Assembly: GCA_026398385.1 (NCBI GenBank)
Contig: JAPLSZ010000251.1
Location: 7,449 to 49,009, forward strand
Length of the DNA: 41,561 bases
Reading direction: 5' to 3'
DNA from: Kiritimatiellota bacterium
Lineage (GTDB): Bacteria > Verrucomicrobiota > Kiritimatiellia > CAIQIC01
Shown: positions 25,703 through 41,561 of the stretch, piece by piece
Numbering within the stretch: position 1 is the stretch's first letter
Layout: the number at the start of each line of letters is the position of its first letter
Notes under the pieces: model-generated
Seen by the model: only the letters and a program-made list of their open reading frames with translations
Told to the model about the DNA's origin: nothing
The model's database searches: none
Translations under genes and position numbers: made by a program

Positions 25703-26368
25703 ATGACAAACGTTTTGCGGCGCATGTTGTTATTCGGTCATGCCGGGCTGCCGGTCGCCCTGCTGTTGTTTGTCCTGGGCTGCGGCGGCGGCGACGGGGG
25801 CAACCAGGCGCCGGTGCTCGATGATTTCGGCGGGAACGATCCGAACGTGGTGGTGGCGTTCGGCGACAGCATTACCGAGGGCGTGGACGGCGGCGGCGCT
25901 CCGTATCCAGGCCGCCTGGCCGCCTTGAGCGGCCGACGGGTCATCAACGCCGGCGTCGGCGGGCAGGAAAGCGGACCCGGCCTCAGCCGCCTCGGCGGCA
26001 CGCTGGCCGCCCGCAAGCCCGGTTATCTTTGCATCCTCTTCGGCGCCAACGATGTCATCAGGGGGTATGATCAAAACACTACGATTGCCAACTTGCAGGC
26101 CATGCTCCAGAAGGCGCGCGCCAATAAGACCGTGCCGATTCTGGCCACGTTGACCCCGATGATCGGCGGGCACGGCATCTGGGGCTCCACCGTAAACCGG
26201 CTGAACGACGCCATCCGCAATCTAGCCTCCGCCGAGGGCGTCACGCTGGTGGATCTTAACGCGGAATTCGGCGATGCCGAGGTGCTGTTGATCGGCGACG
26301 GGCTGCATCCCAACGATCAGGGCAACCAAGTCATCGCCCTGGCCTTCAACGACGCGCTGCCACACTAG
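25703..26368 (+). CDS. SGNH/GDSL-family hydrolase, lipoprotein
   Basis: Lipobox LLFVLGCGGG. Block I VVAFGDSITEG, block III FGANDV, block V DGLHPN. Confidence 0.85.
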   Translation: MTNVLRRMLLFGHAGLPVALLLFVLGCGGGDGGNQAPVLDDFGGNDPNVVVAFGDSITEGVDGGGAPYPGRLAALSGRRVINAGVGGQESGPGLSRLGGTLAARKPGYLCILFGANDVIRGYDQNTTIANLQAMLQKARANKTVPILATLTPMIGGHGIWGSTVNRLNDAIRNLASAEGVTLVDLNAEFGDAEVLLIGDGLHPNDQGNQVIALAFNDALPH

Positions 26369-29737: not shown

Positions 29738-29771
29738 GTTTTGCTCCGTTTCTCGCCTTGGAAAAATCCGC

Positions 29772-30926
29772 TCATTCCCCCTCACGCGCGATCTTCGCCG
29801 CCGTTGGCGCCGCCGCCGGCGGCGGCTGGGTCGCGTCCATCACCGGCGCGCCGGGGAACAGCATCAACTGGCCGAGCACGACGACGTTCTCGCCGGCCTG
29901 CACGCCGGACACCGCCTGCACGAGGTCGCCCACGCGCACGCCGAGCTGTAGCGGCCGCAGTTCCGCGGTGTTCTGCGCCGAGACGACGAACAGATACGGC
30001 CCCTGCTTGCCGAATTGCACCGCGCCCTCCGGCACCATCACCGCGCCGGGCACCGTGCCGGCATGCAGGCGCACGCTGACGAACTGGTGCGCCCAGAGTT
30101 TCAGGTCCGGGTTCGGCGCGGAGCCGCGCAACTGGATGGTGCCGGTCTGCGCGCTGACGGCATTTTCGATAACGTCGAGCGTGGCGGTGTAGGTGTTCGT
30201 CTCGCCGCGCGGGACGAGTTCCAGCTTGACCGGTCCGGCGGCGAGCGCGCGGCGGATCAGCGGGAGGTAATCCTCCGAGACGGAAAAATCCACAAAGAGC
30301 GGATCATAGCTGCGGATGTTCACCAGCCGCGTCAGACCGGCGGCGACGAGGTTGCCGTCGTCGGTAGTGCGCGTCGAGCAGACGCCGGCGAGCGGCGCGG
30401 CGATCGTGCAGCGCGCCAGGTTCAGGCGCGCGAGCGCGAGCAGCGCTTCGTCGGCCTGCAGCGCGGCGCTGGCGGCGGCGAACCTGGTCTTGATCGTGCC
30501 GAAGTCCTCGGCGGAGATCAGTTTCTTTTCGAGCAGCGGCTGGTTGCGCTCCATGGTCAGGCGCGCGAGTTCGCGGTTCGCCTGGTCGGCGGCGCGCGCG
30601 GCCTCGGCCTGCTGGACGCGCGCGGCGTAGTCGCGGGGATCAATCTGGAACAGCGGCTGCGCGTTGGTGACCACGGCGCCGTCCTGGATGAACGTCTGGA
30701 GCAGTTGCCCGGAGACCTGCGGGACGATGTCCACACTCATCCGCGCCTTCGTGGTGCCGAAGGCGTTGATGAGGACCGGCGCATCCATCGGCAGCGCGGG
30801 CGTCAGCTTGACGGGGAACGCCATCTTGGGGGGCGGGCCGGCGTGCTTGCCGCAGCCCGCCATCACGGCTACTACGGCCAGCGTGGCCAGCCCGCGTGTT
30901 GTTTTCAGAAAAATGTTGGGCTTCAT
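29772..30926 (-). CDS. RND efflux periplasmic adaptor (MFP, AcrA-like), lipoprotein
   Basis: Lipobox VMAGCG. Biotinyl-lipoyl/hairpin/beta-barrel pattern (VSGQLLQTFIQDGAVV..GQPLFQIDPRDY...AEAA...C.I.AP..G). Confidence 0.9.
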   Translation of the reverse strand: MKPNIFLKTTRGLATLAVVAVMAGCGKHAGPPPKMAFPVKLTPALPMDAPVLINAFGTTKARMSVDIVPQVSGQLLQTFIQDGAVVTNAQPLFQIDPRDYAARVQQAEAARAADQANRELARLTMERNQPLLEKKLISAEDFGTIKTRFAAASAALQADEALLALARLNLARCTIAAPLAGVCSTRTTDDGNLVAAGLTRLVNIRSYDPLFVDFSVSEDYLPLIRRALAAGPVKLELVPRGETNTYTATLDVIENAVSAQTGTIQLRGSAPNPDLKLWAHQFVSVRLHAGTVPGAVMVPEGAVQFGKQGPYLFVVSAQNTAELRPLQLGVRVGDLVQAVSGVQAGENVVVLGQLMLFPGAPVMDATQPPPAAAPTAAKIAREGE

Positions 30927-30962
30927 GTTTTTCTCCGTCGCGCGATGTTCATCGTTGCATTT

Positions 30963-31036
30963 GTAGGGGCGCAGTCTTGCTGCGTCCCATGTGCTCGGCG
31001 GTCATTTAGACGGGCGCAGCAAGACTGCGCCCCTAC
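30963..31036. repeat. Perfect 22-bp inverted repeat GTAGGGGCGCAGTCTTGCTGCG ... CGCAGCAAGACTGCGCCCCTAC (30-nt spacer)
   Basis: Read directly. It lies inside the efflux operon, between the OMF stop (31072) and the MFP start (30926). Confidence 0.9.
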
Positions 31037-31071
31037 CAACTGGTTGCCAGCCGGCACGGCAAGCCAAGGTT

Positions 31072-32514
31072 TCACGGTTGCCTCTCTGCCCTGGGGGCGT
31101 CCAGGTTTTCCCGGTCGAGCGTACCGCTGGCGAAGGCCAGGTTGGCCAGGGCGGTGAAGGCCTCCTGCCGCGCCGCGATGTTCTGGCTGCGCGCGCGCGC
31201 GAGCTGCGCCTCCGCCGTGAGCAGGTTGAGGATGTTCAACAAGCCGGCCTTATAGCTGTCCAGCGCGAGGTCATAGGCCGCCTGGGCGCTGTTCAGCAGC
31301 GCGGCGCTCGCGGCGCATTTTTTCAGCGCGGTCTGGTAGTTCTGATGCCCGCTCCACACCGCGGCGCTGGCGGCGAGTTCCGCCTGTTGCAACTGGCTGC
31401 GAACCGACGCCGCCTGCGCGGCGGCGGCGCGCCGGGCGTTGCGCGTCTGCAGACCGTCGAACAGCGTCCATTGCAGACTCAGGCCCGCGCCGTAGTTCCA
31501 ATCGTTCTCGGCCACGAACTGGCCGGTCCAGACCTTGTTGTAGTCGCGCAGCGCGTGGCCGTTGAGATAGAGCGACGGCCAGTTCGGCGCGCCGGCGACC
31601 TTGATCGCCGATGTGCTCGCCTGGAGCCGGGCGCGCAGCGCGGCGATGTCCGGCCGGCGGGCGAGCGCGGCATCAATCATCGGCGTCAACTGCGCGGCGT
31701 CCACGGCCGCGGGCAGGGTTTGCGCGGGCGCAGCCACCTGGACCGCCACATCCGCCGGCAACCCCAGCGCCTGGGTCAAGGCGGCCCGCGCGTTTTGCTC
31801 AGCGCCTTCCGCGCCCGCGAGCAGGAACGCGGCTTGATCCATCAGCGCCTGCGCCTGCAACACATCCAGTTCGCGCCCGACGCCGTGGTCGCGCCGGAGC
31901 TTCGCGAACTCGAGCGCGGTCTGCGCATCCGTGAGCTGCGCCTGCGCGGCGGTGATGCCAGCCTGCGCGCTAACAAGACCAAAGTAGGCCTGCTGCACCG
32001 CCAGCAGGATACCCTGCAACGTGCTGTTGAACGTGTAGTTGGCCGCATACACGGTGTGCAGCGCCTGTTCCACGGCCGCTTCGCGTCCGCCGCCGAAGTT
32101 GAAGATCAGGTAGTTGAGCTGCAGACCCGGCCCGTAGCCCAGATAGTCCTGGTCGAGCTGGTCCACACTGGAGTTGACCTTCTGGCGGGTGACGCTGCCC
32201 TGCGCGGTGACGGTCGGCATGAAATAGCCGCGCGCCTGCTGGGCCTGCGCGGCCGCCACGCGGGCGTCGTTCCACGCCTTGCGGCTCGCCGGATTGTTCT
32301 GCAAGGCGATATCGGCCAGTTCCGCCAGCTTCAGCGGTTTGGTCAGATTGGGACAGCGCGCGCGCAGTTCCTGCCACGACTGTAAAGAGGTCCGCGCCCG
32401 TTGCGGCGGCTTCCAAGGCTGAACCGCCGATTCCGGCGCGGGCGCCGAGACGCAGCCGGCCAACGCCATGGCTGCTGTGACCAGCGCGGCCGCAAGGTAA
32501 ATCCGGTGATTCAT
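31072..32514 (-). CDS. Outer-membrane efflux factor (TolC/NodT-family lipoprotein)
   Basis: MNHRIYLAAALVTAAMALAGC lipobox. Two repeated OEP halves with a coiled-coil pattern. Start ATG 32514 overlaps the marR stop (ATGA). Confidence 0.9.
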   Translation of the reverse strand: MNHRIYLAAALVTAAMALAGCVSAPAPESAVQPWKPPQRARTSLQSWQELRARCPNLTKPLKLAELADIALQNNPASRKAWNDARVAAAQAQQARGYFMPTVTAQGSVTRQKVNSSVDQLDQDYLGYGPGLQLNYLIFNFGGGREAAVEQALHTVYAANYTFNSTLQGILLAVQQAYFGLVSAQAGITAAQAQLTDAQTALEFAKLRRDHGVGRELDVLQAQALMDQAAFLLAGAEGAEQNARAALTQALGLPADVAVQVAAPAQTLPAAVDAAQLTPMIDAALARRPDIAALRARLQASTSAIKVAGAPNWPSLYLNGHALRDYNKVWTGQFVAENDWNYGAGLSLQWTLFDGLQTRNARRAAAAQAASVRSQLQQAELAASAAVWSGHQNYQTALKKCAASAALLNSAQAAYDLALDSYKAGLLNILNLLTAEAQLARARSQNIAARQEAFTALANLAFASGTLDRENLDAPRAERQP

Positions 32515-32888
32515 GACGTGTCCCTTTTGCGCGCGCGCGACGCGCGGCGCTGTCCACGCATCTGCTCCAGGCTGCGCCGCCCTCTGGCGGTGAGCGCCAC
32601 GCGCACCTCGCGCCGGTCCGCGCGGCTGCGGCGGCGCGCCACCAGCCCGCGGCGCGCGAGTTGATCCGCCAGGCCCGTCGCCGTCGAGCCGTGCAGCCGC
32701 AGTTCCCCGGCCAGCGCGCGCATGGTGCAGGGGCCGCGATCGAAGAGGTGCTCCAGCGCCCACATCTGCGGCAAGGTGAGCGCGCCCAGCGTGGAAAGAT
32801 CGGTTTGCGAGATGCCGCGCGATAAACGCGGCAGCAGCGCGACGAGGCGCGCGGCAAACTGCTCCAGTGTGAGGGCGGCGGTGGTCAT
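32511..32888 (-). CDS. MarR-family transcriptional regulator
   Basis: 125 aa. Winged-helix pattern LTLPQMWALEHLFDRGPCTMRALAGELRLHGSTATGLADQLARRGLVAR. First gene of the efflux operon. Confidence 0.85.
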   Translation of the reverse strand: MTTAALTLEQFAARLVALLPRLSRGISQTDLSTLGALTLPQMWALEHLFDRGPCTMRALAGELRLHGSTATGLADQLARRGLVARRRSRADRREVRVALTARGRRSLEQMRGQRRASRARKRDTS

Positions 32889-32914: not shown

Positions 32915-33075
32915 GACGCGAACTATAACCCCGAATCCGCCGGGTGCAAGCGAAATAAATTCGGTTTTACGCTTGAGAAATGCCGGCGAATGCGGGATTA
33001 TGCACCATGGTTTATGGCTGCGGCAGATCAAGGACAGCGCTGCGGTGGCGGCGTGTCGGGGAAGAAGGGCAGGGT

Positions 33076-34914
33076 ATGCAGACAGGGAAACAAGAGCGCG
33101 GCGTCAGCGTTTGGCTGGCGACGCTGGTAGCACTCGGTCTGGCGGCGGGCCATCTGGCGCCGGCCCAAGCGTTGGGGAGCGGCGCGGTTCCGGCCACTGT
33201 GCACCCGGCGGACGACGAGGCCTTCGTGTTTTCGCTTACGGCCAGCAATCCGCCGGCCGCGGCTGCCGAACCGGCGGGTCTGACGAACGCGCCGCAGGCG
33301 CGTTTGAACGCGGCGCAGAACGACGTGCAGCAGGGCCGGGTGGCCCAGGCGATTCCGACACTGGAACGACTGGTGGACGAGGCGCCGCAACTGACGGACG
33401 CCTGGGAGACGCTCGGCTGGGCTTACTGGCGGCTGGGGCGGGAGGACGAAGCCCTCGCGCTATGGGGGAAATTGCTGAAGCTCAACCCGCAGATGCCGCA
33501 GGCCTACAATCTGCTGGGGGCAGCCAGCGTCAAGCGTAACGAGCTGACCATGGCCGCCATGTACTATGAAAAGAGCCTGCAGATCCAGCCGGACCAATAC
33601 GATGTGGAATTGGCCCTGGCCCGCATCGCGCGCTGGACCGGCGACGAGGAGCGTGCCATCGAAAAATTGCGGGCCTTGGCGGCGAAAGATCCCCGGCGCC
33701 GGGATGTGAAAAACGAGTTGTCCCGCGCGCTGGGGGGCGCAAGCGAAGAGCCGGCCAACCCTGTGGAACCCGGCGCGCCAGGGTCCTCCTCTGCCACCAA
33801 CGAGGAACACCGGGCGCGTCCGGCGGCGGACGCGTCATCTCCGCGCAACGCGCTCGCCGGCCAGCCGCCGGCCAGCCTCCCGGGGGACCGCGCTGCGCCT
33901 GAGCGCGCAGCCCAGCCGCCCGCCCCGCCGCTCGCGGTGGCGAGCGAGGGGCGCGGCGCGCAGAACGTCGCGCGCTACCGGCCGTATGTCGGGGCGCTAG
34001 CCGAAACCTTTCAGGATAATCTGGATAGCCGCAACTGGCGCGCATACGGACGCGCGGGCTTCCAGCCGACGCCCCGTCTGACGGTCGAAGGCCGTGCCGG
34101 TTATGGTCAGATGAAACAGGCCTTCACCAACAGCAGCGCGATCAATGTTCCCGACATCACGTTGGACGAGAAGATGGTCAGCCTCGCCCCCTCGTGCACG
34201 TCCCCGAACGGCTGGACGTTGCTGGGCGAGTTAGCGGCTCGCCAGTTCTCCGGCGCCGTTCCGGGCGCGCAGAATTTTGATAAAACCGTATTGCAATATG
34301 CCCTCGAGGGCCAGGCCAAGCCGCTGCTGCCCCTCGACGTGGCGGCGCGGTACGAGCACGACATCGTCCCCGCCGCCCGCGCGGCCCTCAAGGAGACCAC
34401 CTCCAACATGGCCTTGCTTAGCGCCGTCTGGAGCCTGACCGACTGGTGGAACCTCTGGGCCAGCGGCGAACGGTACGATTTTTCCGATGGCAATGCCCGC
34501 AACCACCTGGCGCTGAGCAGTTCCTGGCTGGTGTGGGAGCCGCTCGGCCTGCATCTGGGCCTGCGGTACGCCTATGCCGACGCCAGCGTGGCCAGTCCCG
34601 ATTACTGGACGCCTTATCAATTGCAGCGGTATTTTGTCGAGGCCGATCTGCGCGGGACGCAGCTGCGCATCTTTTATAACCTGCGCCTGCGCTATGGCCT
34701 GGGGCGGCAGGGCGTGCGGCCGGAAGCCCAGGCGGCCCTCGCCTTGCCCGGCAGCAATCCGCCCGAGGAGGGCTGGCAACCGGTGATCGGCGCCAGCGCC
34801 GCCGCGCGCGCGAAGGTCGGCAAACATTGGGAACTCAGCGGCGAAGTTTCGCACAACAAGATGCCTGACTATAACGAAACCACGGTAACGGCTGGCTTGA
34901 ACTACAGGTTCTGA
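33076..34914 (+). CDS. TPR-repeat protein fused to a C-terminal outer-membrane beta-barrel (PgaA/YaiO-type architecture)
   Basis: Signal peptide MQTGKQERGVSVWLATLVALGLAAGHLAPAQA. TPRs (DAWETLGWAYWRLGREDEALALWGKLLKLNPQMPQAYNLLG...). Pro/Ala linker. An alternating-hydrophobic C-domain of about 310 aa ends in ...TAGLNYRF (aromatic terminal residue). Confidence 0.7.
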   Translation: MQTGKQERGVSVWLATLVALGLAAGHLAPAQALGSGAVPATVHPADDEAFVFSLTASNPPAAAAEPAGLTNAPQARLNAAQNDVQQGRVAQAIPTLERLVDEAPQLTDAWETLGWAYWRLGREDEALALWGKLLKLNPQMPQAYNLLGAASVKRNELTMAAMYYEKSLQIQPDQYDVELALARIARWTGDEERAIEKLRALAAKDPRRRDVKNELSRALGGASEEPANPVEPGAPGSSSATNEEHRARPAADASSPRNALAGQPPASLPGDRAAPERAAQPPAPPLAVASEGRGAQNVARYRPYVGALAETFQDNLDSRNWRAYGRAGFQPTPRLTVEGRAGYGQMKQAFTNSSAINVPDITLDEKMVSLAPSCTSPNGWTLLGELAARQFSGAVPGAQNFDKTVLQYALEGQAKPLLPLDVAARYEHDIVPAARAALKETTSNMALLSAVWSLTDWWNLWASGERYDFSDGNARNHLALSSSWLVWEPLGLHLGLRYAYADASVASPDYWTPYQLQRYFVEADLRGTQLRIFYNLRLRYGLGRQGVRPEAQAALALPGSNPPEEGWQPVIGASAAARAKVGKHWELSGEVSHNKMPDYNETTVTAGLNYRF

Positions 34915-35014
34915 GCATGGTCGGGCTTTGAACCAATACGGACCGGTGCTATAGTGCAGCGGCGCGCCTGTGGCGGGATGGATGTTTGGGGCGGTTACGC
35001 GGACGAAAGGGGAA

Positions 35015-35245
35015 ATGCCAGTGGATACGCAATTGTTTCTCGCGAGCTTGGCCGGAATTCTCAAGGTCCTACCCGGTTCGATCAAGGGGGAAGATCAACT
35101 GGATCAATGTGCGTCTTGGGATTCGCTGGCGGTGGTCACCTTTCTGACCATGGCCAACTCGAAATTTGGCGTGCGCGTATCGCCGCCGGCGGTGATTCGA
35201 TGCAAGACGGTAGCCGATTTGATGCGGCTGGTCGCCAAGCCCTGA
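35015..35245 (+). CDS. Acyl/peptidyl carrier protein (PP-binding)
   Basis: 76 aa. ...QLDQCASWDSLAVVTFLTMANSKFGVRV with Ser codon 35123-35125 in a DSL motif. ATG 35015 is preceded by AAAGGGGAA. Confidence 0.75.
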   Translation: MPVDTQLFLASLAGILKVLPGSIKGEDQLDQCASWDSLAVVTFLTMANSKFGVRVSPPAVIRCKTVADLMRLVAKP

Positions 35246-35322
35246 TCGGCGGCCACCCGATCATAGGAGAGGCCAAGCCTGGGTTCATCCTGGAAGAGTT
35301 TGGCGCAGGCCGCCTGACATGT

Positions 35323-37188
35323 ATGGACGATTTTTTATCCACCGTTCAGAGTTGCCGGCAACTGATGACGCAGGGCGAGGTGGCCACGGCGCTCGCGGGT
35401 TTGCGGGCGGGGTTGCGTTTCGGCCAGCCGGAACCGTTCGAGTATGATCTGGCGGGACAACTGCTGGGGGAAATAGGCGCCGTGGTCCCCGCGCCCGCCG
35501 CCTTTCCGACGTACCGGGTGGGCCTCGTGGCCGACCACACCACCACCACACTGGCGAACGCGATCCGCTGCGCCTTGCTGATGGAGGGGTTGCTGCCCGT
35601 GGTCTACGAAGCGCCTTTCGGCGCGGTTTTCCAGGAAATCCTCGATCGCCACAGCGGTCTTTATCGCGAACCGCGCGACGCGGTGCTCATGGCATTTCAT
35701 CACCGTATGATCGAATATCCGGAACAGCCTTTGGGTGGCGCCGTCCCGGCCGAAGAACTGGCCGCGCGCGTGGTGGGCCGGTGGGCGGAGGCGTGGGCGG
35801 CGCTCCAGCAGAACTTGGGTTGCCAGGTGTGGCAACACACCCTGGTGCCGTCGGGTCTGGCGGGATTGGGGGCGGTGGAGCAGTCGTTGCCGGCGGCGCC
35901 GGACCAGTTCATTGGGCGGATCAATCAGCTCAGCCGCGAGCGGGCGCCGGCCTTTGTGCATTGGGTGGACACGGCCAGCCTGGCGCAACAGGTTGGGTTC
36001 AGAAACTGGCATGATCCGCGCATGTACTACTACGGCAAGTTCGGCTTCAATCCTCAGTATGTGCGGGATTACATCAACGTATTTTTGGGCGCTTTTCGCG
36101 CGGCCACCGGGCGGAACCGCAAAGTCCTGATCACAGACCTGGACAACACGCTGTGGGGCGGGGTTGTCGGCGACGCCGGCCTGGAGGAAATCAAGCTGGG
36201 TCCGGGCACGCCGGAGGGCGAAGCCCACGAAGCTTTCTGCCGCTATCTGAAAAGCCTGAAGGAACGCGGCGTTATGCTGGCGGTCTGCAGCAAGAATGAC
36301 GCGGCGACGGCGCGGGAAGTGTTCGAGCGCCATCCCCACATGCCGTTGCGGCTGGCGGATTTCTCCGCTTTTTGCTGCAACTGGAGTGACAAGGCCGGCA
36401 ATGTACTGCAGATGGCGAAGGAGTTGAACATCGGCCACACGCATCTGGCCTTCGTCGATGACAATCCCGCGGAATGCGAATTGATCCGGCGCGAATTGCC
36501 GGAGGTCGCGGTGGTGGCGTTGCCCGAGGATCCCGCCGATTTCGTGGCCGCTATTGATGAGGCGCATCTCTTCGATGCGGCGCACGTGTCGTCGGAGGAT
36601 TTGCTGCGCGCGCAATCCTACCGGGCGCGCGAGCAGGCGGAAGACGTCAAGCGTTCCGCCGGCAGCTTGGAGGCTTACCTGGCGGACCTGCGCATGGTGG
36701 GGAAATTCTTCCGGGCCAGCGCGGCGGACGTGCCCCGTCTGGCGCAGATGGAGCTCAAGACGAATCAATTCAATGTGACCACCCGTCGCTATAACGCCGA
36801 CCAGATCCGGGCCTTCCTGCAGGATGACCACATGGCGGTGTTCGCTTGTACGCTGGCCGACCGGTTTGCGAATCACGGCCTCGTTTCCACCCTGATCGCA
36901 CGCCGCGCAGGCCAGGACCTGGTGCTGGATAGCTGGCTGATGAGCTGCCGCGTTTTTTCGCGGACGCTGGAACAGTTCATGATGAATGCCTTGATCGAAT
37001 TTGCGCAGAAAAATGGCATCACGCGTATAGTCGGCGATTACCTGCCGACCTCCAAAAATGCCGTGGTGCAGGATCTTTTCTCCTCATTGGGTTTTCAACC
37101 CCTGGGCCCGAAGGCGAGCGGTCGCTGGGTGCGCAACATTCGCGACGACCCACCGCTGCCCACCAGCGTGCGCAACGACGCCACGTAA
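35323..37188 (+). CDS. FkbH-like / HAD-superfamily IIIC phosphatase-acyltransferase (carrier-protein loader)
   Basis: HAD motif I LITDLDNTLWGG (DLDNTLW = 36136-36156). KTNQFNVTTRRY. C-terminal GNAT-like block with WLMSCRVFSRTLE (Cys codon 36946-36948). N-domain VGLVADHTTTTL...VYEAPFGAVFQEILD..SGLY. The start is uncertain (35323, or 35200 overlapping the carrier gene). Confidence 0.85.
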   Translation: MDDFLSTVQSCRQLMTQGEVATALAGLRAGLRFGQPEPFEYDLAGQLLGEIGAVVPAPAAFPTYRVGLVADHTTTTLANAIRCALLMEGLLPVVYEAPFGAVFQEILDRHSGLYREPRDAVLMAFHHRMIEYPEQPLGGAVPAEELAARVVGRWAEAWAALQQNLGCQVWQHTLVPSGLAGLGAVEQSLPAAPDQFIGRINQLSRERAPAFVHWVDTASLAQQVGFRNWHDPRMYYYGKFGFNPQYVRDYINVFLGAFRAATGRNRKVLITDLDNTLWGGVVGDAGLEEIKLGPGTPEGEAHEAFCRYLKSLKERGVMLAVCSKNDAATAREVFERHPHMPLRLADFSAFCCNWSDKAGNVLQMAKELNIGHTHLAFVDDNPAECELIRRELPEVAVVALPEDPADFVAAIDEAHLFDAAHVSSEDLLRAQSYRAREQAEDVKRSAGSLEAYLADLRMVGKFFRASAADVPRLAQMELKTNQFNVTTRRYNADQIRAFLQDDHMAVFACTLADRFANHGLVSTLIARRAGQDLVLDSWLMSCRVFSRTLEQFMMNALIEFAQKNGITRIVGDYLPTSKNAVVQDLFSSLGFQPLGPKASGRWVRNIRDDPPLPTSVRNDAT

Positions 37189-37329: not shown

Positions 37330-37722
37330 TTACATCAAGTGATTGGTCGGCGTGAAAAACCAGGCGATCCGCCGTCCGCCAAACGCGGTGGCAGGCACCG
37401 GTGGGCTCACCAGCGTGCAACCTTGCTGGAGCAGGGCGGCCATCGTCGGCGTCAGATCATCCACTTCGCAGCAAAGGTGGTAGGCGCCGATACCCTTGGC
37501 CAATGTGCGGGTGATCGGCGAGTCGTCGCTCAACGCTTCGATCAATTCGATCGCAGAGTCGGTCCCTTGAGCGGGGCCCAGGAAGCAGACCCGGACTCTT
37601 TGCATGGGGTCATCGAATGGGCCAGAGCGTACGACAAAACCAAAGGCCTGCTGATAAAACTTCACGGCCTGCTCGATGTCCGCCACCGCCACGCCCAGAT
37701 GATGAATCTTAAGATCCGTCAT
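37330..37722 (-). CDS. VOC-family protein (glyoxalase I / methylmalonyl-CoA epimerase-like)
   Basis: 130 aa. MTDLKIHHLGVAVADIEQAVKFYQQAFGF ... GAYHLCCEVDDL. Start trimmed to ATG 37722. Confidence 0.8.
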   Translation of the reverse strand: MTDLKIHHLGVAVADIEQAVKFYQQAFGFVVRSGPFDDPMQRVRVCFLGPAQGTDSAIELIEALSDDSPITRTLAKGIGAYHLCCEVDDLTPTMAALLQQGCTLVSPPVPATAFGGRRIAWFFTPTNHLM

Positions 37723-37943
37723 GGTTATTGCTCTTGCCGAAGTAAAACATACGGCGGCGCACAAGTCCAGGCGCATGGCTTCATCCGCTTGGGCGAGGTG
37801 CGGATTGCCAAACCCGCGGGATTGTAGTAGAAGCTCCGTTTCTTAAAGAAAGGCCTGTGATGAACCGACCGCCGAGCGCGAGAATAAGACGCGAGCTTAT
37901 GGCCGCCGGGCCGGGCGGGTGGGCCCGCGACAGGTGCTAAGTC

Positions 37944-39377
37944 ATGCTTTTCCCAACCCTCGCTTTTGCCGTCTTTTTCCTGATCGTGTTTTGCGGCCAC
38001 TGGCTGTTGATCCGGCACGCGGTCGCGTGGAAGCTGTTCATTCTGGCCGCGAGCTGGTTTTTCTATGCTTATTGGGACTGGCGCTTTCTGGGCCTATTGA
38101 TCCTGTACACGGTGGTCAATTACAGCCTGGCGTTGGCCTCGTACCAGAGCGGCACGCCGCCCCGGCGACGGTGGGTGGCCTTGGCCATCGTGTTCAATCT
38201 CAGCCTGCTGGGGTTCTTCAAATACTACGGCTTTTTCACGGTCTCCGCCTATGCCGTCTGCGGCTGGGTGGGACTGCGCTGTCCGCTGCCCTTGCTGGAC
38301 GTCGTGCTGCCGATCGGCATTTCCTTCTTCACGTTTCAAGCCATAAGCTATGTCATTGATGTGCACCGCGGACTGATCGAGCCGGCGCACAGCGTCATTG
38401 ACTTTGCGATCTATAAGGCTTTTTTCCCGCAACTCGTGGCCGGGCCGATCATCCGGGCGAGTCACTTTATACCGCAATTCTACCAGATCATGAGCGTGCG
38501 GCGCATTGACGCGGGCCGGGCCGCCGCCTTGATCATGGGCGGCCTGTTTAAGAAGGTGGTGATCGCCAACTATATAGCCGTGAACGTGGTGGACCCGGTC
38601 TTTGGCAACCCGTGGGCGTATCAGGGCCTGGATGTCCTGCTGGCGGTGTACGGCTATGCCGTGCAGATTTACTGCGATTTCTCCGCCTATTCCGATATCG
38701 CCATCGGCGTGGCGCAACTGCTGGGATTCCATTTCCCTGAAAATTTCAACGCGCCTTATTTCGCCCGGTCCGTCCGCGAGTTCTGGCAGCGCTGGCACAT
38801 TTCCCTGTCCACCTGGCTGCGGGATTATCTTTTTTTCAGCCTGCTCGGCACCCGGCTGGGCGCCTCGCGTTACGCGCTGGGCCTCTGCGCCTTGCTTACG
38901 TTTCTGCTGGGCGGTTTGTGGCATGGCGCCGCGTGGACGTTTGTCCTATGGGGCGCGTTGCAGGGCCTGTATATGACGACGGAGTTTCTGCTGGCCAAGC
39001 TGCTGGTCTGGATGCGCGCGGGTCGTCCGCTGCCCGAGGGACCGGTGATGCGGTTGGCGCAGCGGATGGCGGTGATCCATTTGATCTGCATTTCCCATTT
39101 GTTCTTTCGGGCGCATTCCATTACGGACGGGGTGCAACTATTACAGGGGATCATGGGTTCGTGGCACGGCGCCGTCTTGCTCACTTTCCCGGCCGTCTTG
39201 GCGCTGATCATCGGCTTTCTCACGCAATACATGGATGGCACCCGCTGCGCGCCGATTTGGAATTGGTACAACCGCCTGCCGGCGGTCGGGCAGGGGCTGC
39301 TGGCGGCGGTGGTGTTGACGATCGTCCTGGCCCTGGGGCCGCAAGGCGTGGCGCCCTTCATCTATTTTCAATTCTGA
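37944..39377 (+). CDS. MBOAT-family membrane O-acyltransferase (AlgI/DltB-like)
   Basis: 477 aa, polytopic. ISFFTFQAISYVIDV; FWQRWHISLSTWLRDYLF; GGLWHGAAWTFVLWG (conserved His codon 38922-38924). Confidence 0.9.
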   Translation: MLFPTLAFAVFFLIVFCGHWLLIRHAVAWKLFILAASWFFYAYWDWRFLGLLILYTVVNYSLALASYQSGTPPRRRWVALAIVFNLSLLGFFKYYGFFTVSAYAVCGWVGLRCPLPLLDVVLPIGISFFTFQAISYVIDVHRGLIEPAHSVIDFAIYKAFFPQLVAGPIIRASHFIPQFYQIMSVRRIDAGRAAALIMGGLFKKVVIANYIAVNVVDPVFGNPWAYQGLDVLLAVYGYAVQIYCDFSAYSDIAIGVAQLLGFHFPENFNAPYFARSVREFWQRWHISLSTWLRDYLFFSLLGTRLGASRYALGLCALLTFLLGGLWHGAAWTFVLWGALQGLYMTTEFLLAKLLVWMRAGRPLPEGPVMRLAQRMAVIHLICISHLFFRAHSITDGVQLLQGIMGSWHGAVLLTFPAVLALIIGFLTQYMDGTRCAPIWNWYNRLPAVGQGLLAAVVLTIVLALGPQGVAPFIYFQF

Positions 39378-39384
39378 GACGACC

Positions 39385-39672
39385 ATGAAAGAAATGTCCG
39401 ACATTGGCGCCGAACGCAGGCAACAAGGCCACGGGCAGACCATCATCCGGACGGCAGCGGCCGTGCTTTGCTTCTATGTGTTTGCGGGCCTGCTCAACGG
39501 CGAGGCCCTCCGGCACGACGTGGAACTCATGCCCTACGGGGGCCGACGGGATGTCTGCGTGGCCCTCGTCAAGCCCATGGCCTGGTTGAGCCGGGTGACC
39601 TACCTGGGATCCTTCCGGAGCTGGATCGAAAAAAGCGTCCGCAAAGCGGATATGGCGGCGCCGAATCCCTGA
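39385..39672 (+). CDS. Small single-TM membrane protein (hypothetical; MBOAT partner candidate)
   Basis: 95 aa, starting 7 nt after the MBOAT stop. One TM, IIRTAAAVLCFYVFAGLL. No recognisable domain. Confidence 0.5.
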   Translation: MKEMSDIGAERRQQGHGQTIIRTAAAVLCFYVFAGLLNGEALRHDVELMPYGGRRDVCVALVKPMAWLSRVTYLGSFRSWIEKSVRKADMAAPNP

Positions 39673-39677
39673 CGGCC

Positions 39678-41561
39678 TTAGAACTTGAACTTGATTCCGC
39701 CCAGCAGGTTCAGCGAGTTATAATCGGGCAGGCGGTTATAGGAAACTTCCCCGTTCAATTCCCAATGGCCACCTAATTTGATCCGCGTGGCCGCCACCAG
39801 CCCCAGCACGGGTTCCCAGCCCGGTTCCTCGATCGGGTTGGCCAGCAGGACATCAATATAATGCTGGAAGTTTCTAATGGTGGCCGGGCTGAATCTTCTG
39901 CTGCGGGCTGTTCGCAGGCTTTGCTGCAACTGTTGCAGATCTTCCTGATACTTGCGCTTGGCTTCAGGACGCAAGCTCTCCTTGCCGAGGCCGTAGCGCA
40001 CGCCGATATTGTAATAGATCCGCCGGTAGGTGCGCCGGAAAAAGGCTTCCAGGTAGTAGCGGTTCAGTTTATAGGGCGTCCAGTAGTCCGGACTGGCTTC
40101 GTCGGCGGAGGTATATTCATAGCGCAGCCCCAGGCGGAAACCGGCGGGCTCATACAGCAGCCACAAGCTTTCCGCCATCAAATGATTGCGGTTGTTGGAA
40201 TCGGAAAACATGTAACGCGTGCCGCTGGCGTTGAGGTCCCACCAATCGAACAGACGGTAGGCCGCGGCGAGCGTGCCGGCGTTGTAGGTGGTATCTTTAA
40301 GCGCCGCGCGCGCGGAAGGCACGATGTCGTGCTCCCAACGCGCGGCCACGTCCAGCGGCAACAGCGGCTTGATCTGTGCTTCCGCCGCATACTGGATTAC
40401 CGTTTTGTCGAAGTTGGCTGTGTGGCCGTTCAAGTCCGTCGGCACCTTGCCCGTGAAGTGGCGATCAGAAAGCTCGCCCAGCAACACCCAGCCGTTGGGG
40501 AATTTGACCGCCGGCGCCACGCCCACCGTGCGCTCATCCAGTCGAATCTCCGGTCCGTTGAGCGCCAGATTGTTGGTGAACGCCTGCTGCATCCGGCCGA
40601 TGCCCGCCGTGCCCTCCACGGTGATGTTGGGGGTCAGGTTCAAACCCCCGAGGCCCAGGAGGCGCCAGTTGCGACTGTCGAGGTTGTCCTTGAGATACTC
40701 CGCCCGGACGCCGACATACGGGTCTTTCAATTCCAGATGGAAGGGTCCCTTGGTGACTTTACTGATACCCACCGGTGTCGTGCGCACCCCCGTCAGGCGT
40801 TCGTACACGTAACTCGCCACTTTGTTGTAGGCATTCGTCGGATAGCCGTCCTGCCGCAATTGCGCCAAGGCGTCCTTGGATTTATAGATCTTGCCTTCCT
40901 GGGCGGCGTATTCGGCCCGCAGCCGGTGGGCCAGAAAGACCGGGTGATTGCGCAGGAGGTATTCCACGGCTTCCGCTCCCGGCAGGCGCCCCAGCTCGTG
41001 GCGCTGGTAGAGCAGGGGGTTGTCGCCGTTGACCGCGTAACCAAACTGGCTTTGGATAAAGCCGGTTTTATAGTTGGCGGCCGCTTCCCGGAGATTGACC
41101 GTGAGGGCCTCGGGCATGTCGCTGCGCGTTTCCTGGCCGAGGTCGCCCATGGGGTAGGCGATGATATCCGCTGCGCCGCCCAGCTTCTGCTGCATAATTT
41201 CGCGGCTGCGCTGGTATTCATATTTGATGCGGGCATCATATTCGTTTTCGGTTTCCAGCCGGTTCGGCGCAGCGAGCCATAGGCGGTTGGCCAGCGGATG
41301 GATGACCGAATTGTCGGACTCCATGTGCAGCACCTCATGGGCTTCCATCAAATGGCTGCCAAACCGCCAGCGGCCCGTGGCTTGAGCGGCCTTCATCTGC
41401 TCCCAGGAACTGGTGTAGGAATCGTGATCCACATGGCCCACGGGCACATGCATGAGGAATGTCGTGTTGAAATCCTGCGCCACCGCGGTCCCCAGCCGCA
41501 GGGCCTCCCGCCGCGCATCGTCGAAGGTGACCATGACCACACGCTCGGGTGTACCCGTCGG
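39678..41561 (-). CDS. NodB/PgaB-like polysaccharide deacetylase fused to a C-terminal outer-membrane beta-barrel; 5' end beyond the window
   Basis: The frame is open to the window edge (...PTGTPERVVMVTFDD). TFDD (41517-41528) and H-x4-H (GSHLMEAH) are as in PgaB, plus AYPMG. The C-terminal domain of about 345 aa is paralogous to 33980-34914 and ends ...GGIKFKF. Confidence 0.75.
   Translation of the reverse strand, partial: PTGTPERVVMVTFDDARREALRLGTAVAQDFNTTFLMHVPVGHVDHDSYTSSWEQMKAAQATGRWRFGSHLMEAHEVLHMESDNSVIHPLANRLWLAAPNRLETENEYDARIKYEYQRSREIMQQKLGGAADIIAYPMGDLGQETRSDMPEALTVNLREAAANYKTGFIQSQFGYAVNGDNPLLYQRHELGRLPGAEAVEYLLRNHPVFLAHRLRAEYAAQEGKIYKSKDALAQLRQDGYPTNAYNKVASYVYERLTGVRTTPVGISKVTKGPFHLELKDPYVGVRAEYLKDNLDSRNWRLLGLGGLNLTPNITVEGTAGIGRMQQAFTNNLALNGPEIRLDERTVGVAPAVKFPNGWVLLGELSDRHFTGKVPTDLNGHTANFDKTVIQYAAEAQIKPLLPLDVAARWEHDIVPSARAALKDTTYNAGTLAAAYRLFDWWDLNASGTRYMFSDSNNRNHLMAESLWLLYEPAGFRLGLRYEYTSADEASPDYWTPYKLNRYYLEAFFRRTYRRIYYNIGVRYGLGKESLRPEAKRKYQEDLQQLQQSLRTARSRRFSPATIRNFQHYIDVLLANPIEEPGWEPVLGLVAATRIKLGGHWELNGEVSYNRLPDYNSLNLLGGIKFKF

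What the first reader, a model, noticed from the sequence alone, without database searches (positions are those of the whole stretch)
35015..37188. FkbH-like loader plus stand-alone carrier protein in place of a DltA-type ligase: possible glyceryl (C3 hydroxy-acid) donor for glycan acylation
Seen: the carrier protein has the DSL phosphopantetheine serine (35123-35125). The downstream 621-aa protein has the HAD-IIIC DLDNTLW motif (36136-36156), KTNQFN, and the C-terminal SCRV cysteine (36946-36948), which I recall as the acyl-S-enzyme site of FkbH/OzmB-type enzymes. Established: FkbH-type enzymes dephosphorylate 1,3-bisphosphoglycerate and transfer glycerate to an ACP. O-glycerate esters do exist on bacterial polysaccharides, for example native gellan. 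Inference: here the glyceryl-S-carrier would feed the adjacent MBOAT rather than a PKS. That would be a new acyl-donor route for envelope or exopolysaccharide modification.
Basis: partly seen in the sequence, partly recalled or inferred. Interest (0 to 1): 0.75.

Follow-up and report, generated by a model that had tools for sequence, protein, structure and literature searches.

The report
Glycerate-loading cassette for polysaccharide acylation
An enzyme known for loading a glycolysis-derived glyceryl group onto a carrier protein for antibiotic synthesis sits here, with its carrier protein, beside a membrane acyltransferase that decorates secreted sugar polymers, which suggests a widespread and apparently undescribed way of putting three-carbon hydroxy-acid groups on bacterial surface polysaccharides.

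Summary
There is a 76-aa carrier protein (Ser37 in DSL) and a 621-aa FkbH-family protein. The FkbH protein scores 291 bits on TIGR01686 (cut-off 147) and has all four HAD motifs, KTNQFN and the single universally conserved Cys542 (SCRV). That Cys aligns with FkbH proteins from methoxymalonyl, zwittermicin and tetronate clusters. No KS, AT or adenylation signature occurs in the 41.5-kb window.

The adjacent MBOAT has the catalytic His and ends in FIYFQF, the acyl-shuttle tyrosine motif of PatA, AlgI and DltX. It is followed by a conserved 95-aa membrane protein, which corresponds to the detached N-terminal module of DUF459 SGNH partners. Paralogous TPR and CE4-deacetylase outer-membrane proteins flank the cassette.

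In close relatives, ACP, FkbH, MBOAT, the small protein and the DUF459 protein stay together through at least four gene orders. Among 80 genomes with FkbH relatives, 72 have an ACP nearby (61 adjacent) and 42 an MBOAT, from three MBOAT lineages. The 80 nearest relatives of the window's MBOAT lack FkbH and ACP, so the donor module was recruited.

The best reading is a Dlt-like, carrier-dependent polysaccharide acylation fed by 1,3-bisphosphoglycerate, with possible tailoring by a VOC enzyme. All of this is in silico. I found no paper describing it. I rate it a new variant of a known kind.

The parts
32980..34914 (+). TPR-repeat protein with a C-terminal ~340-aa outer-membrane beta-barrel-like domain. 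It is a PgaA/PelB-like candidate for polysaccharide export or scaffolding.
   Evidence: It matches TPR families at residues 105-250 and weakly matches OMP_b-brl at residues 529-644. The NCBIfam hits below cut-off include PgaA, BcsC and PrsT. Its C-terminal domain is 51% identical to that of the 39678-41561 protein.
35015..35245 (+). Stand-alone acyl carrier protein of 76 aa. The phosphopantetheine attachment site is Ser37, codon 35123-35125.
   Evidence: It matches PF00550 at E=5e-8 and carries the DSL motif. A homologous ~80-aa ACP is found near the FkbH gene in 72 of 80 related genome loci and lies adjacent on the same strand in 61.
35323..37188 (+). FkbH-family protein of 621 aa with three domains: an N-terminal FkbH_N domain (about residues 1-260), a HAD-IIIC phosphatase domain (about 266-420) and a GNAT-fold transferase domain (about 455-605). 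The HAD domain carries D272/D274/T276 at 36136-36150, S323, K357 and D379/D380. The GNAT-fold domain carries KTNQFN at 36757-36774 and Cys542 at 36946-36948.
   Evidence: It scores 291 bits on TIGR01686 (cut-off 147) and also matches TIGR01681. PDB 3SLR (BF1531) matches at E=3e-48, or 4e-88 with a profile. The AF2 model has pLDDT 87.8. Foldseek matches 3SLR at TM 0.87 for the N-terminal plus HAD part, and GNAT acetyltransferases at TM about 0.7 for the C-terminal domain.
37330..37776 (-). VOC (glyoxalase-fold) protein resembling methylmalonyl-CoA epimerase. It is a candidate tailoring enzyme acting on the acyl-thioester, for example as a C2 epimerase.
   Evidence: It matches PF13669 at E=2e-22 and scores 66 bits on TIGR03081, below the cut-off of 115. 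Homologous VOC genes lie next to FkbH or MBOAT genes in L175, S. meliloti L081, L018, L031, L044 and others.
37944..39377 (+). MBOAT acyltransferase of 477 aa. The catalytic His287 in RWHISLS is at codon 38796-38798. The C-terminal acyl-shuttle hexapeptide FIYFQF is at 39357-39374, with Tyr474 at 39363-39365.
   Evidence: It matches PF03062 at E=1e-21, scores 165 bits on TIGR04091 DltB, below the cut-off, and matches DltB structures 6BUG and 8JEM at E=2e-31. The C-terminus is read. The role of the motif is taken from PMC12148441.
39385..39672 (+). Conserved 95-aa single-pass membrane protein. It corresponds to the detached N-terminal module of DUF459 SGNH partners of this MBOAT clade.
   Evidence: It is 63-64% identical to the ORFs that follow the MBOAT in L083 and L085. 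It aligns to residues 14-82 of a 332-aa DUF459 protein at E=9e-8. The hydrophobic segment is at residues 19-37. In L088 and L174 the order is MBOAT, small protein, DUF459.
39678..41561 (-). C-terminal part of a large periplasmic CE4 polysaccharide deacetylase fused to the same beta-barrel-like domain. The gene runs off the window end.
   Evidence: It matches PF01522 at E=4e-6 and gives PgaB-like hits. It is homologous to residues 602-1254 of the 1254-aa TPR-CE4 proteins of L083 and L088. In L088 the orthologue sits directly upstream of the MBOAT.
34928..34955 (+). Sigma-70-like promoter match (TTGAAC-16-TATAGT, with TG) upstream of the ACP gene. This is weak evidence only.
   Evidence: The number of such matches in the region is no greater than in shuffled sequence.

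Best explanation
This is a Dlt-like, carrier-protein-dependent pathway for acylating an exported polysaccharide, in which an FkbH-type enzyme replaces the DltA ligase. The proposed steps follow, and each is marked as shown or inferred. (1) The FkbH-like enzyme takes glycolytic 1,3-bisphosphoglycerate. Cys542 in the GNAT-fold domain captures the acyl group as a thioester. The HAD domain (D272 nucleophile) removes the 3-phosphate. The glyceryl group then passes to the phosphopantetheine on Ser37 of the adjacent carrier protein. This step is inferred from family membership and conserved catalytic residues. (2) The VOC, methylmalonyl-CoA-epimerase-like enzyme may modify the thioester, for example by epimerising C2 from D to L. 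This is speculative. (3) The MBOAT takes the acyl group from the carrier protein at the cytoplasmic face, using His287, and places it on Tyr474 of its own C-terminal FIYFQF motif at the periplasmic face. This is inferred by analogy with DltB/DltX and PatA. (4) A DUF459 SGNH transferase passes the acyl group to hydroxyl groups of a polysaccharide. Only its detached membrane module, the 95-aa protein, is encoded in the window. The polysaccharide is also processed and exported by the flanking TPR and CE4-deacetylase outer-membrane proteins. This step is inferred from synteny.
For: Family membership is well above the curated cut-off, and every catalytic motif is present. The Asp and Cys positions align with FkbH proteins from bona fide PKS cassettes, and Cys542 is the only universally conserved Cys. 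OzmB is documented to form phosphoglyceryl-S- and glyceryl-S-enzyme intermediates and then glyceryl-ACP (PMC9057759; PMC7489565).

The model shows FkbH_N, HAD and GNAT-fold domains, with the Cys at the end of a GNAT core beta-strand. The retained HAD phosphatase machinery argues for a phosphorylated acyl phosphate such as 1,3-BPG. No KS, AT or adenylation enzyme is present in the window.

Synteny supports the link to the MBOAT. The window and L175 share one gene order. L083/L084 have ACP-FkbH-MBOAT-small. L085 has MBOAT-small-ACP-FkbH. L174 has MBOAT-small-DUF459-ACP-FkbH, tightly packed and co-directional. L173 has TPR-CE4-ACP-FkbH.

Across 80 species-level genomes, 72 have an ACP and 42 have an MBOAT within 7 kb. 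In 37 of those 42 the MBOAT is on the same strand as the FkbH gene, and 27 of those lie within 700 nt. Of the 42 loci, 28 have an MBOAT that ends in F[LIV]YxxF. These loci span Acidobacteriota, Alpha- and Betaproteobacteria, Planctomycetota, Clostridia, Cyanobacteria, Myxococcota, Nitrospinota and other phyla.

S. meliloti plasmids carry VOC-MBOAT-DltD-like-ACP-FkbH beside the rkp capsule-export genes. The MBOAT has the catalytic His and the Tyr hexapeptide whose acyl-shuttle role was shown for PatA and DltX. There is also a precedent for FkbH genes in glycan acylation: C. jejuni cj1302 correlates with dimethylglyceroyl-pseudaminic acid, and a 50%-identical relative lies in a nonulosonic-acid locus.
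Against: Nothing here is biochemical. The substrate, the acyl group and the acceptor are all inferred. The 80 nearest relatives of the window's MBOAT (40-56% identity) have no FkbH or ACP within 7 kb. Instead, 43 of them pair with a DUF459 SGNH protein. In an NJ tree the window's MBOAT nests inside that carrier-free clade. Its ancestral donor was therefore probably an acyl-CoA, and a switch of donor has to be assumed.

In the window, ACP-FkbH and MBOAT-small are separated by an opposite-strand VOC gene, so they are not one operon. The DUF459 catalytic domain is absent from the 41.5-kb window. No glycosyltransferase or synthase lies next to the cassette. The window's FkbH is only 24-32% identical to PKS-context enzymes. 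About 38 of the 80 FkbH loci have no MBOAT and evidently use other acyltransferases.
Confidence: 0.6

Rival explanations
1. The adjacency is real, but the hand-off goes elsewhere. The MBOAT, small protein and DUF459 system O-acetylates the polymer from acetyl-CoA, as its nearest relatives presumably do. FkbH-ACP supplies a glycerate-derived acyl group to a different, cytoplasmic acyltransferase, for example N-acylation of an amino sugar or re-acylation after CE4 deacetylation. That acyltransferase would be encoded outside the window.
For: None of the 80 closest MBOAT relatives carries FkbH or ACP, and the window's MBOAT nests among them. About 38 of the 80 FkbH-ACP loci lack an MBOAT and instead sit with hexapeptide, AAC(3)-like N-acyltransferase or nucleotide-sugar genes. 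The C. jejuni precedent is an N-acyl group on pseudaminic acid. A CE4 deacetylase that would expose amines is adjacent.
Against: No other acyltransferase is encoded near ACP-FkbH in the window or in L083, L085 or L174. The MBOAT, small protein and DUF459 genes are the only acyl-transfer genes that stay with ACP-FkbH through four different gene orders. Two other MBOAT lineages show independent, repeated linkage to FkbH-ACP.
Confidence: 0.22
2. The FkbH-like enzyme does load the carrier protein for the MBOAT, but the acyl group is not glycerate-derived. This long-form, non-PKS subfamily would use another phosphorylated acyl donor.
For: The enzyme is only 24-32% identical to PKS-context FkbH proteins. 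The subfamily is very large and uncharacterised, with about 5,700 clusters at 50% identity scoring E<=1e-30. The only related structure, 3SLR, has no assigned function.
Against: All HAD motifs, the NQFN motif and the SCRV Cys are invariant across the short PKS forms, the long tetronate forms and this subfamily. The tetronate-type enzymes share the same three-domain length and are accepted glyceryl-ACP synthases. The frequent MaoC dehydratase, SDR and O-methyltransferase neighbours fit tailoring of a 2,3-dihydroxyacyl thioester. Dimethylglyceroyl-Pse correlates with cj1302. No other common metabolite combines an acyl phosphate with a phosphomonoester.
Confidence: 0.1
3. This is a conventional secondary-metabolite use. 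Glyceryl-ACP feeds a PKS (hydroxymalonyl- or methoxymalonyl-ACP) or a tetronate KAS III encoded outside the window, and the MBOAT neighbourhood is coincidental.
For: All biochemically characterised FkbH enzymes serve PKS, NRPS or tetronate pathways. The window covers only 41.5 kb and its right end is unknown.
Against: The window contains no KS, AT, KAS III, acyl-CoA dehydrogenase or hydroxyacyl-CoA dehydrogenase (FkbI/FkbK type), and neither do the relatives' loci. PKS cassettes keep these genes directly adjacent. The synteny with MBOAT, SGNH, TPR and CE4 genes is conserved.
Confidence: 0.03

Closest known systems
Dlt pathway of Firmicutes (DltA, DltC, DltB, DltX, DltD): D-alanylation of teichoic acids
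   Same: The logic is the same: a cytoplasmic loader, a stand-alone phosphopantetheinyl carrier protein, an MBOAT with a catalytic His, a Tyr in an FxYxxF hexapeptide and an SGNH-type extracytoplasmic transferase. The MBOAT matches DltB structures at E=2e-31. The mechanism is described in PMC12148441.
   Different: The loader is a HAD and GNAT-fold FkbH enzyme that uses an acyl phosphate, not an ATP-dependent adenylating ligase. The acyl group would be a C3 hydroxy acid, not D-Ala. The Tyr hexapeptide is fused to the MBOAT instead of lying on a DltX microprotein. The SGNH partner is of the DUF459 type and is split into two genes. The host is a diderm and the target is probably an exopolysaccharide. 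The MBOAT scores below the DltB cut-off, at 165 against 375 bits.
Carrier-independent MBOAT-SGNH pairs (PatA/PatB for peptidoglycan, AlgI/AlgJ/AlgX for alginate, WssH/WssI for cellulose)
   Same: The MBOAT has a fused C-terminal F-I/L-Y-x-x-F acyl-shuttle motif and a separate SGNH partner. The window's MBOAT belongs to a large MBOAT-DUF459 clade of this type.
   Different: PMC12148441 states that these pathways lack a carrier protein because they use acyl-CoA. Here, and in 42 of 80 FkbH loci, a dedicated carrier protein and loader are clustered with the MBOAT.
FkbH, OzmB, ZmaN, Tmn16 and Mad7-type glyceryl-S-ACP synthases of PKS, NRPS and tetronate pathways
   Same: The window's protein meets the same TIGR01686 domain above cut-off, has the same invariant DxDxT, S, K, DD, NQFN and SCRV residues, and has a dedicated ACP next door. 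Its three-domain length matches the tetronate-type enzymes.
   Different: There is no downstream dehydrogenase, methyltransferase and PKS set and no KAS III. The consumer is proposed to be an MBOAT. Sequence identity is only 24-32%.
[quoted passage not shown]
   Same: An fkbH-domain gene (cj1302) lies in a glycan locus. A strain in which it is a pseudogene lacks the dimethylglyceroyl sugars (PMC7099621; PMC3068675). A 50%-identical relative of the window's enzyme lies in a similar nonulosonic-acid locus with an ACP, an N-acyltransferase, MaoC and methyltransferases.
   Different: That modification is a cytoplasmic N-acylation of a nucleotide-sugar precursor, and no MBOAT is involved. The role of cj1302 is correlative and has not been shown biochemically.
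BryA loading module of bryostatin (FkbH domain with DH and KR domains, proposed to make D-lactyl from glyceryl). This is cited from my own knowledge and was not checked here.
   Same: It combines FkbH chemistry with a dehydratase and a reductase, as in the MaoC, SDR and fused MaoC-SDR genes beside 27 and 23 of the 80 FkbH loci and in L085.
   Different: In BryA the domains are part of a PKS megasynthase. Here they are free-standing enzymes in polysaccharide loci. The window itself has a VOC gene rather than MaoC and SDR genes.

Membership tests
FkbH family (TIGR01686; glyceryl-S-ACP synthase type) | The protein scores above the curated family cut-off across the HAD and C-terminal domains. | tested here: met
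   It scores 291.4 bits against a cut-off of 146.65, covering profile positions 3-320 of 323.
FkbH family (TIGR01686; glyceryl-S-ACP synthase type) | The HAD-IIIC catalytic motifs are present: DxDxT nucleophile, Ser/Thr, Lys and DD. | tested here: met
   D272, D274, T276, S323, K357, D379 and D380 are invariant in 18 homologues and in the PKS-context FkbH proteins.
FkbH family (TIGR01686; glyceryl-S-ACP synthase type) | A conserved Cys for the acyl-S-enzyme intermediate lies in the C-terminal domain. | tested here: met
   C542 (SCRV) is the only Cys invariant across A3. An S-linked OzmB intermediate is documented in PMC9057759. That this exact Cys is the OzmB site rests on elimination and my recollection of Dorrestein et al. 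2006, which I could not retrieve.
FkbH family (TIGR01686; glyceryl-S-ACP synthase type) | A dedicated stand-alone ACP is encoded next to the enzyme. | tested here: met
   The ACP at 35015-35245 lies 78 nt upstream. An ACP is present in 72 of 80 related loci.
FkbH family (TIGR01686; glyceryl-S-ACP synthase type) | The enzyme converts 1,3-bisphosphoglycerate to glyceryl-S-ACP. | not testable with these tools
   This needs an enzyme assay with intact-protein MS.
FkbH family (TIGR01686; glyceryl-S-ACP synthase type) | The enzyme is coupled to a PKS, NRPS or tetronate consumer (FkbI/FkbK dehydrogenases, KAS III or a PKS). | tested here: not met
   None of these is present in the window or in the relatives' loci. 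Compare the true cassettes.
Dlt-type carrier-dependent MBOAT acylation | The MBOAT has the catalytic His. | tested here: met
   RWHISLS with His287 aligns to DltB 6BUG.
Dlt-type carrier-dependent MBOAT acylation | A phosphopantetheinyl carrier protein is encoded with the MBOAT. | tested here: met
   This holds in the window and in L083, L085 and L174.
Dlt-type carrier-dependent MBOAT acylation | A DltA-type adenylating ligase loads the carrier. | tested here: not met
   No AMP-binding signature occurs in any frame. FkbH occupies this role.
Dlt-type carrier-dependent MBOAT acylation | A DltX microprotein, or an equivalent FxYxxF acyl-shuttle motif, is present. | tested here: met
   The motif FIYFQF is fused to the MBOAT C-terminus. 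There is no separate DltX.
Dlt-type carrier-dependent MBOAT acylation | The MBOAT is orthologous to DltB (TIGR04091 above cut-off). | tested here: not met
   It scores 164.7 bits against a cut-off of 375.
Dlt-type carrier-dependent MBOAT acylation | An extracytoplasmic SGNH or DltD-type transferase partner is present. | tested here: inconclusive
   Only the 95-aa N-terminal module is in the window. The DUF459 catalytic domain is absent from the 41.5 kb but is present in L083, L085, L088 and L174.
MBOAT-DUF459 (PatA/PatB-like, carrier-independent) pairs | The MBOAT clusters phylogenetically with MBOATs that are followed by a DUF459 SGNH protein. | tested here: met
   It is 40-56% identical to 80 metagenomic relatives, 43 of which have DUF459 downstream. 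It nests in that clade in an NJ tree.
MBOAT-DUF459 (PatA/PatB-like, carrier-independent) pairs | No carrier protein or loader is present, and the donor is an acyl-CoA. | tested here: not met
   ACP and FkbH are clustered with the MBOAT in the window and in five related contigs.

The most novel reading that the evidence does not exclude
FkbH-ACP pairs would be a portable donor module. It taps glycolytic 1,3-bisphosphoglycerate without ATP-dependent activation and has been recruited independently by at least three MBOAT lineages: the short DltB-like type, the long Tyr-motif type and the MBOAT-DUF459 type seen here. It would install C3 hydroxy-acyl esters on extracytoplasmic polysaccharides in many phyla. 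The esters would be glyceryl, or epimerised, dehydrated and reduced (lactyl) or O-methylated derivatives after VOC, MaoC, SDR or methyltransferase tailoring. This would be a second carrier-protein-dependent MBOAT pathway besides Dlt. It would also be a candidate origin for O-glycerate groups such as those of gellan-type polymers.
Probability: 0.45. Interest if true: 0.78.

Novelty: new variant of a known kind. Interest (0 to 1): 0.62.

Why it matters
The current literature divides bacterial MBOAT-SGNH acylation into two kinds: Dlt, which uses a carrier protein and D-Ala, and everything else, which uses acyl-CoA without a carrier (PMC12148441). This cassette would be a second carrier-dependent branch with a different loader chemistry, an acyl phosphate taken from glycolysis and captured on a Cys. 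It would also deliver a different class of acyl group.

The cassette is not a curiosity of one genome. About half of the 80 nearest FkbH-family loci, from many phyla, have the same linkage, and they include Sinorhizobium meliloti megaplasmids where the cassette lies next to capsule-export genes. This gives a concrete, testable hypothesis for thousands of genes currently annotated only as 'HAD-IIIC family phosphatase', 'acyl carrier protein' and 'MBOAT family protein'. It also offers an explanation for how glycerate- or lactate-type substituents reach exopolysaccharides. Such substituents change charge, hydration, gelation and immune or phage recognition.

Tried and rejected
1. I checked for a PKS, NRPS or tetronate context. 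Pfam scans of 27 window ORFs and PROSITE-style regex scans of all six frames found no KS, AT or AMP-binding enzyme, so I rejected this context for the window.

2. I tested whether the GDSL protein at 25703-26368 is the missing SGNH partner. It is not an orthologue of the DUF459 proteins of the relatives (BLASTP E=0.02), so I rejected it.

3. I tested whether the window's MBOAT belongs to a dedicated FkbH-linked MBOAT clade. It does not. It nests in a carrier-free MBOAT-DUF459 clade.

4. I searched the window for a homologue of the S. meliloti 409-aa DltD-like protein and found none.

5. I tried to extend the window through exact-protein look-up of the MBOAT. This returned only a 2.3-kb contig, so what lies beyond 41561 is unknown.

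6. Literature searches for FkbH with MBOAT, O-acyltransferase, glyceroyl, or polysaccharide plus glycerate, and for HAD-IIIC with ACP, MBOAT and polysaccharide, returned only unrelated cyanobacterial NRPS, PKS or other off-topic papers. The OzmB paper and the Schultz et al. 2023 paper are not held, so I could not read the Cys assignment or any bioinformatic survey in the latter.

7. Sequence and profile searches of the PDB found only 3SLR, which has no assigned function.

Full report
OBSERVATION. The gene at 35015-35245(+) encodes a 76-aa protein that matches PF00550 (PP-binding, E=5e-8). Its DSL serine is Ser37, codon 35123-35125. The next ORF begins at the in-frame ATG at 35323 and ends at 37188, giving 621 aa. 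DLDNTLW lies at 36136-36156, KTNQFN at 36757-36774, and the Cys of SCRV at 36946-36948. The protein scores 291 bits on NCBIfam TIGR01686 'FkbH domain' (cut-off 147) and also meets TIGR01681 'HAD-IIIC'. Pfam shows only a weak FkbH_N hit. The one related solved structure is the function-unknown BF1531 fragment 3SLR, at E=3e-48 with the sequence and 4e-88 with a profile.

THE ENZYME. In an alignment of 18 diverse full-length homologues, the HAD motifs are invariant: D272/D274/T276, S323-K324, K357 and D379-D380. So are K479/N481-Q482-F483-N484 and S541-C542-R543. One is a 341-aa gene inside a methoxymalonyl-ACP cassette with methyltransferase, hydroxyacyl-CoA dehydrogenase, ACP, acyl-CoA dehydrogenase, FkbH and a type I PKS (L087). 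Another is the HAD-IIIC gene of the B. thuringiensis hybrid NRPS/PKS cluster that I take to be the zwittermicin cluster, so presumably ZmaN (L082). The third is a 658-aa gene in a KS, KAS III, FkbH, ACP tetronate-type cassette (L086). Identity to the window's protein is only 24-32%. Even so, the Asp, Ser, Lys, DD and NQxN positions and the SCRV motif are invariant, and C542 is the only cysteine conserved in every sequence.

[quoted passage not shown] Both the long tetronate-type and the short methoxymalonyl-type enzymes are accepted glyceryl-ACP synthases (PMC7489565). An AlphaFold model (pLDDT 87.8) has three domains. The N-terminal domain and the HAD domain superpose on 3SLR (TM 0.87). The C-terminal domain has a GNAT fold (TM about 0.7 to RimI-type acetyltransferases), with Cys542 at the end of a core beta-strand. 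That placement fits an acyl-thioester site facing a pantetheine-binding groove. The complete phosphatase machinery argues for a substrate that carries a phosphomonoester as well as the acyl phosphate. 1,3-BPG is the obvious such metabolite; this last point is inference. The family is very large, with about 5,700 clusters at 50% identity scoring E<=1e-30.

THE NEIGHBOURS. The MBOAT at 37944-39377 matches PF03062 and the DltB structures 6BUG and 8JEM (E=2e-31), including the RWHISLS histidine, His287. It falls well below the DltB equivalog cut-off. It ends in ...APFIYFQF. This is the C-terminal hexapeptide whose tyrosine was shown to carry the acyl group in PatA and in the DltX microprotein (PMC12148441).

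The 95-aa ORF that follows (39385-39672) is a real gene. It is 63-64% identical in two related contigs and has one hydrophobic helix. It aligns to the N-terminal region of 330-aa DUF459 SGNH proteins, which normally follow MBOATs of this clade. Between FkbH and the MBOAT, on the opposite strand, lies a VOC protein that resembles methylmalonyl-CoA epimerase.

The cassette is bracketed by two paralogous proteins. One has TPR repeats and the other a CE4 polysaccharide deacetylase domain. They share a C-terminal domain of about 340 aa that is 51% identical and ends in an outer-membrane-type aromatic terminus. In relatives this domain terminates TPR-CE4 proteins of 1081-1254 aa. No KS, AT or adenylation signature exists anywhere in the window. 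The organism is probably a member of the Kiritimatiellae, because the best named FkbH hit (69% identity) comes from a Kiritimatiellae MAG.

IS FkbH-ACP FUNCTIONALLY TIED TO THE MBOAT? Three lines of comparative evidence bear on this.

(a) In the closest relatives (65-95% FkbH identity) the components stay together while the gene order changes. L175 has the same order as the window, including the VOC gene. L083/L084 have ACP-FkbH-MBOAT-small, then a methyltransferase and DUF459. L085 has MBOAT-small-ACP-FkbH, then MaoC-SDR, a methyltransferase and DUF459. L174 has MBOAT-small-DUF459-ACP-FkbH, tightly packed and co-directional, and its MBOAT is 68% identical and ends in PFIYFQF. L173 has TPR-CE4-ACP-FkbH.

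(b) I examined the 80 best FkbH relatives in species-representative genomes. An ACP of about 80 aa is present in 72, on the same strand in 71, and adjacent (within 400 nt) in 61. An MBOAT lies within 7 kb in 42. In 37 of these it is on the same strand, and 27 of those lie within 700 nt. Of the 42 loci, 28 have an MBOAT that ends in F[LIV]YxxF; the others are short and DltB-like. These loci come from at least ten phyla. A well-annotated example is a Sinorhizobium meliloti megaplasmid with VOC-MBOAT-(409-aa membrane-anchored DltD-like protein)-ACP-FkbH beside the rkp capsule-export genes.

(c) The counter-evidence is that the 80 nearest relatives of the window's MBOAT in metagenomes (40-56% identity) have no FkbH or ACP at all. 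Instead, 43 of them have a DUF459 SGNH gene directly downstream. In an NJ tree the window, L083 and L085 nest inside this carrier-free clade, next to L088, whose order is TPR-CE4-barrel, MBOAT, small protein, DUF459.

I read this as recruitment of a portable FkbH-ACP donor module by an MBOAT-DUF459 system that ancestrally used another donor. The same recruitment appears to have happened in two other MBOAT lineages. The NJ tree is approximate, so this should be confirmed with a proper phylogeny.

WHAT ACYL GROUP? Recurrent neighbours of FkbH-ACP are MaoC dehydratases (27 of 80 loci), SDRs (23 of 80, sometimes fused to MaoC), O-methyltransferases and VOC proteins (7 of 80, plus the window, L175 and S. 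meliloti). These fit tailoring of a 2,3-dihydroxypropanoyl thioester. Dehydration followed by reduction would give lactyl, which is the logic proposed for the bryostatin BryA loader (own knowledge). O-methylation would give methoxy derivatives.

A 50%-identical relative sits in a nonulosonic-acid locus with an ACP, an AAC(3)-like N-acyltransferase, MaoC and methyltransferases. That arrangement mirrors the C. jejuni cj1295-cj1302 region. C. jejuni flagellin carries 5-N-(2,3-di-O-methylglyceroyl)-pseudaminic acid (PMC3068675). A strain in which the fkbH-domain gene cj1302 is a pseudogene lacks those sugars (PMC7099621). This is circumstantial, but it is independent support that the non-PKS FkbH subfamily supplies glycerate-derived acyl groups to glycans. 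In the window the only candidate tailoring enzyme is the VOC protein. An epimerase role (D- to L-glyceryl) is my speculation, based on its similarity to methylmalonyl-CoA epimerase.

MECHANISM AND CONFIDENCE. The best explanation has four steps (overall confidence 0.6). First, 1,3-BPG is converted to (phospho)glyceryl-S-Cys542, and the HAD domain then removes the phosphate. Second, the glyceryl group passes to Ser37-Ppant of the ACP, with possible modification by the VOC enzyme. Third, MBOAT His287 transfers the group to Tyr474 of its FIYFQF tail. Fourth, a DUF459 SGNH protein, docked through the 95-aa module, transfers it to hydroxyl groups of a polysaccharide that the flanking TPR and CE4 barrel proteins deacetylate and export.

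What is shown: family membership, the catalytic residues, the architecture, the synteny statistics and the absence of PKS genes. What is inferred: the substrate, the acyl identity, donor use by the MBOAT and the acceptor.

The main rival (0.22) keeps the MBOAT on acetyl-CoA and sends the glyceryl-ACP to an unseen cytoplasmic acyltransferase. The minor rivals are a different acyl substrate (0.1) and a distant PKS consumer (0.03).

NOVELTY. Full-text searches combining FkbH or HAD-IIIC with MBOAT, O-acyltransferase, glyceroyl or polysaccharide found only unrelated natural-product or off-topic papers. The 2025 mechanistic paper on MBOAT-SGNH systems states that pathways other than Dlt lack a carrier protein. 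I could not read Schultz et al. 2023, which may contain a relevant survey. On this evidence the cassette is a new variant of a known kind. Its logic is Dlt-like and it combines known parts (FkbH, ACP, MBOAT, SGNH), but the loader-consumer pairing and the predicted acyl chemistry are undescribed. The pairing is widespread rather than unique to this window.

Noticed in passing
window 32980-34914(+) and 39678-41561(-): Two paralogous proteins share a 51%-identical C-terminal domain of about 340 aa that ends in ...Y[RK]F. It looks like an outer-membrane barrel and has no Pfam family beyond a weak OMP_b-brl hit. One protein fuses it to TPR repeats and the other to a CE4 deacetylase. In relatives the same domain terminates TPR-CE4 proteins of 1081-1254 aa. 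This may be an undescribed export and modification porin family.
   Followed up: partly
window 39385-39672(+); L083:13483-13758; L085:1783-2058; L174:1071-1346; L088:8445-8684: The membrane-anchor and N-terminal module of DUF459 SGNH proteins is encoded as a separate microprotein of 91-95 aa directly after the MBOAT in this lineage. The DUF459 catalytic domain is missing from the 41.5-kb window, although relatives have it one to three genes away.
   Followed up: partly
L088-L167 (metagenome loci): There is a very common and apparently uncharacterised gene pair: an MBOAT of about 475 aa ending in F[LIV]YxxF, followed by a DUF459 SGNH protein. It occurs in 43 of 80 loci, often among housekeeping genes such as TIM, ETF and a cell-wall hydrolase. 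Its target polymer is unknown.
   Followed up: partly
L170/L171: A 50%-identical FkbH relative lies in a nonulosonic-acid biosynthesis locus with NeuB, a CMP-transferase, a DegT aminotransferase, an ACP, an AAC(3)-like N-acyltransferase, MaoC and three methyltransferases. This parallels the C. jejuni cj1295-cj1302 region that is linked to dimethylglyceroyl-pseudaminic acid.
   Followed up: partly
L081 (S. meliloti plasmid CP140944.1, 1048271-1054156): The locus has VOC, MBOAT, a 409-aa protein, ACP and FkbH next to the rkpR/S/T-type capsule-export genes. The 409-aa protein is annotated 'TonB-dependent receptor' but looks like a membrane-anchored DltD-like protein, with a GGSTT block and no Pfam hit. 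About 40 Sinorhizobium plasmids carry the FkbH gene, which makes this a tractable model for testing the pathway.
   Followed up: partly
window 18988-19998(+) and 20160-21536(+): An AIR-carboxylase-like (LarB-type) gene is followed by a nickel-insertion (LarC, PF01969, E=3e-126) gene. Together they suggest biosynthesis of the nickel-pincer cofactor of lactate-racemase-type enzymes.
   Followed up: no
window 26633-32888(-): A tripartite RND efflux operon lies immediately upstream of the cassette on the opposite strand. It comprises a 1050-aa inner-membrane pump, a membrane-fusion protein at 29772-30926 and an OEP outer-membrane factor at 31072-32523, together with a MarR regulator at 32511-32888.
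   Followed up: no
window 13765-16413(+): This is an unusually large (882-aa) radical SAM protein with the Radical_SAM_N2 N-terminal domain. Its function is unknown.
   Followed up: no
L169: A 51%-identical FkbH relative sits in the order two O-methyltransferases (one TylF-type), ACP, FkbH, a 639-aa unknown protein, an MBOAT (522 aa) and two unknown proteins of about 400 aa. The same contig carries a second HAD-IIIC gene. This points to a methoxylated acyl variant of the pathway.
   Followed up: no
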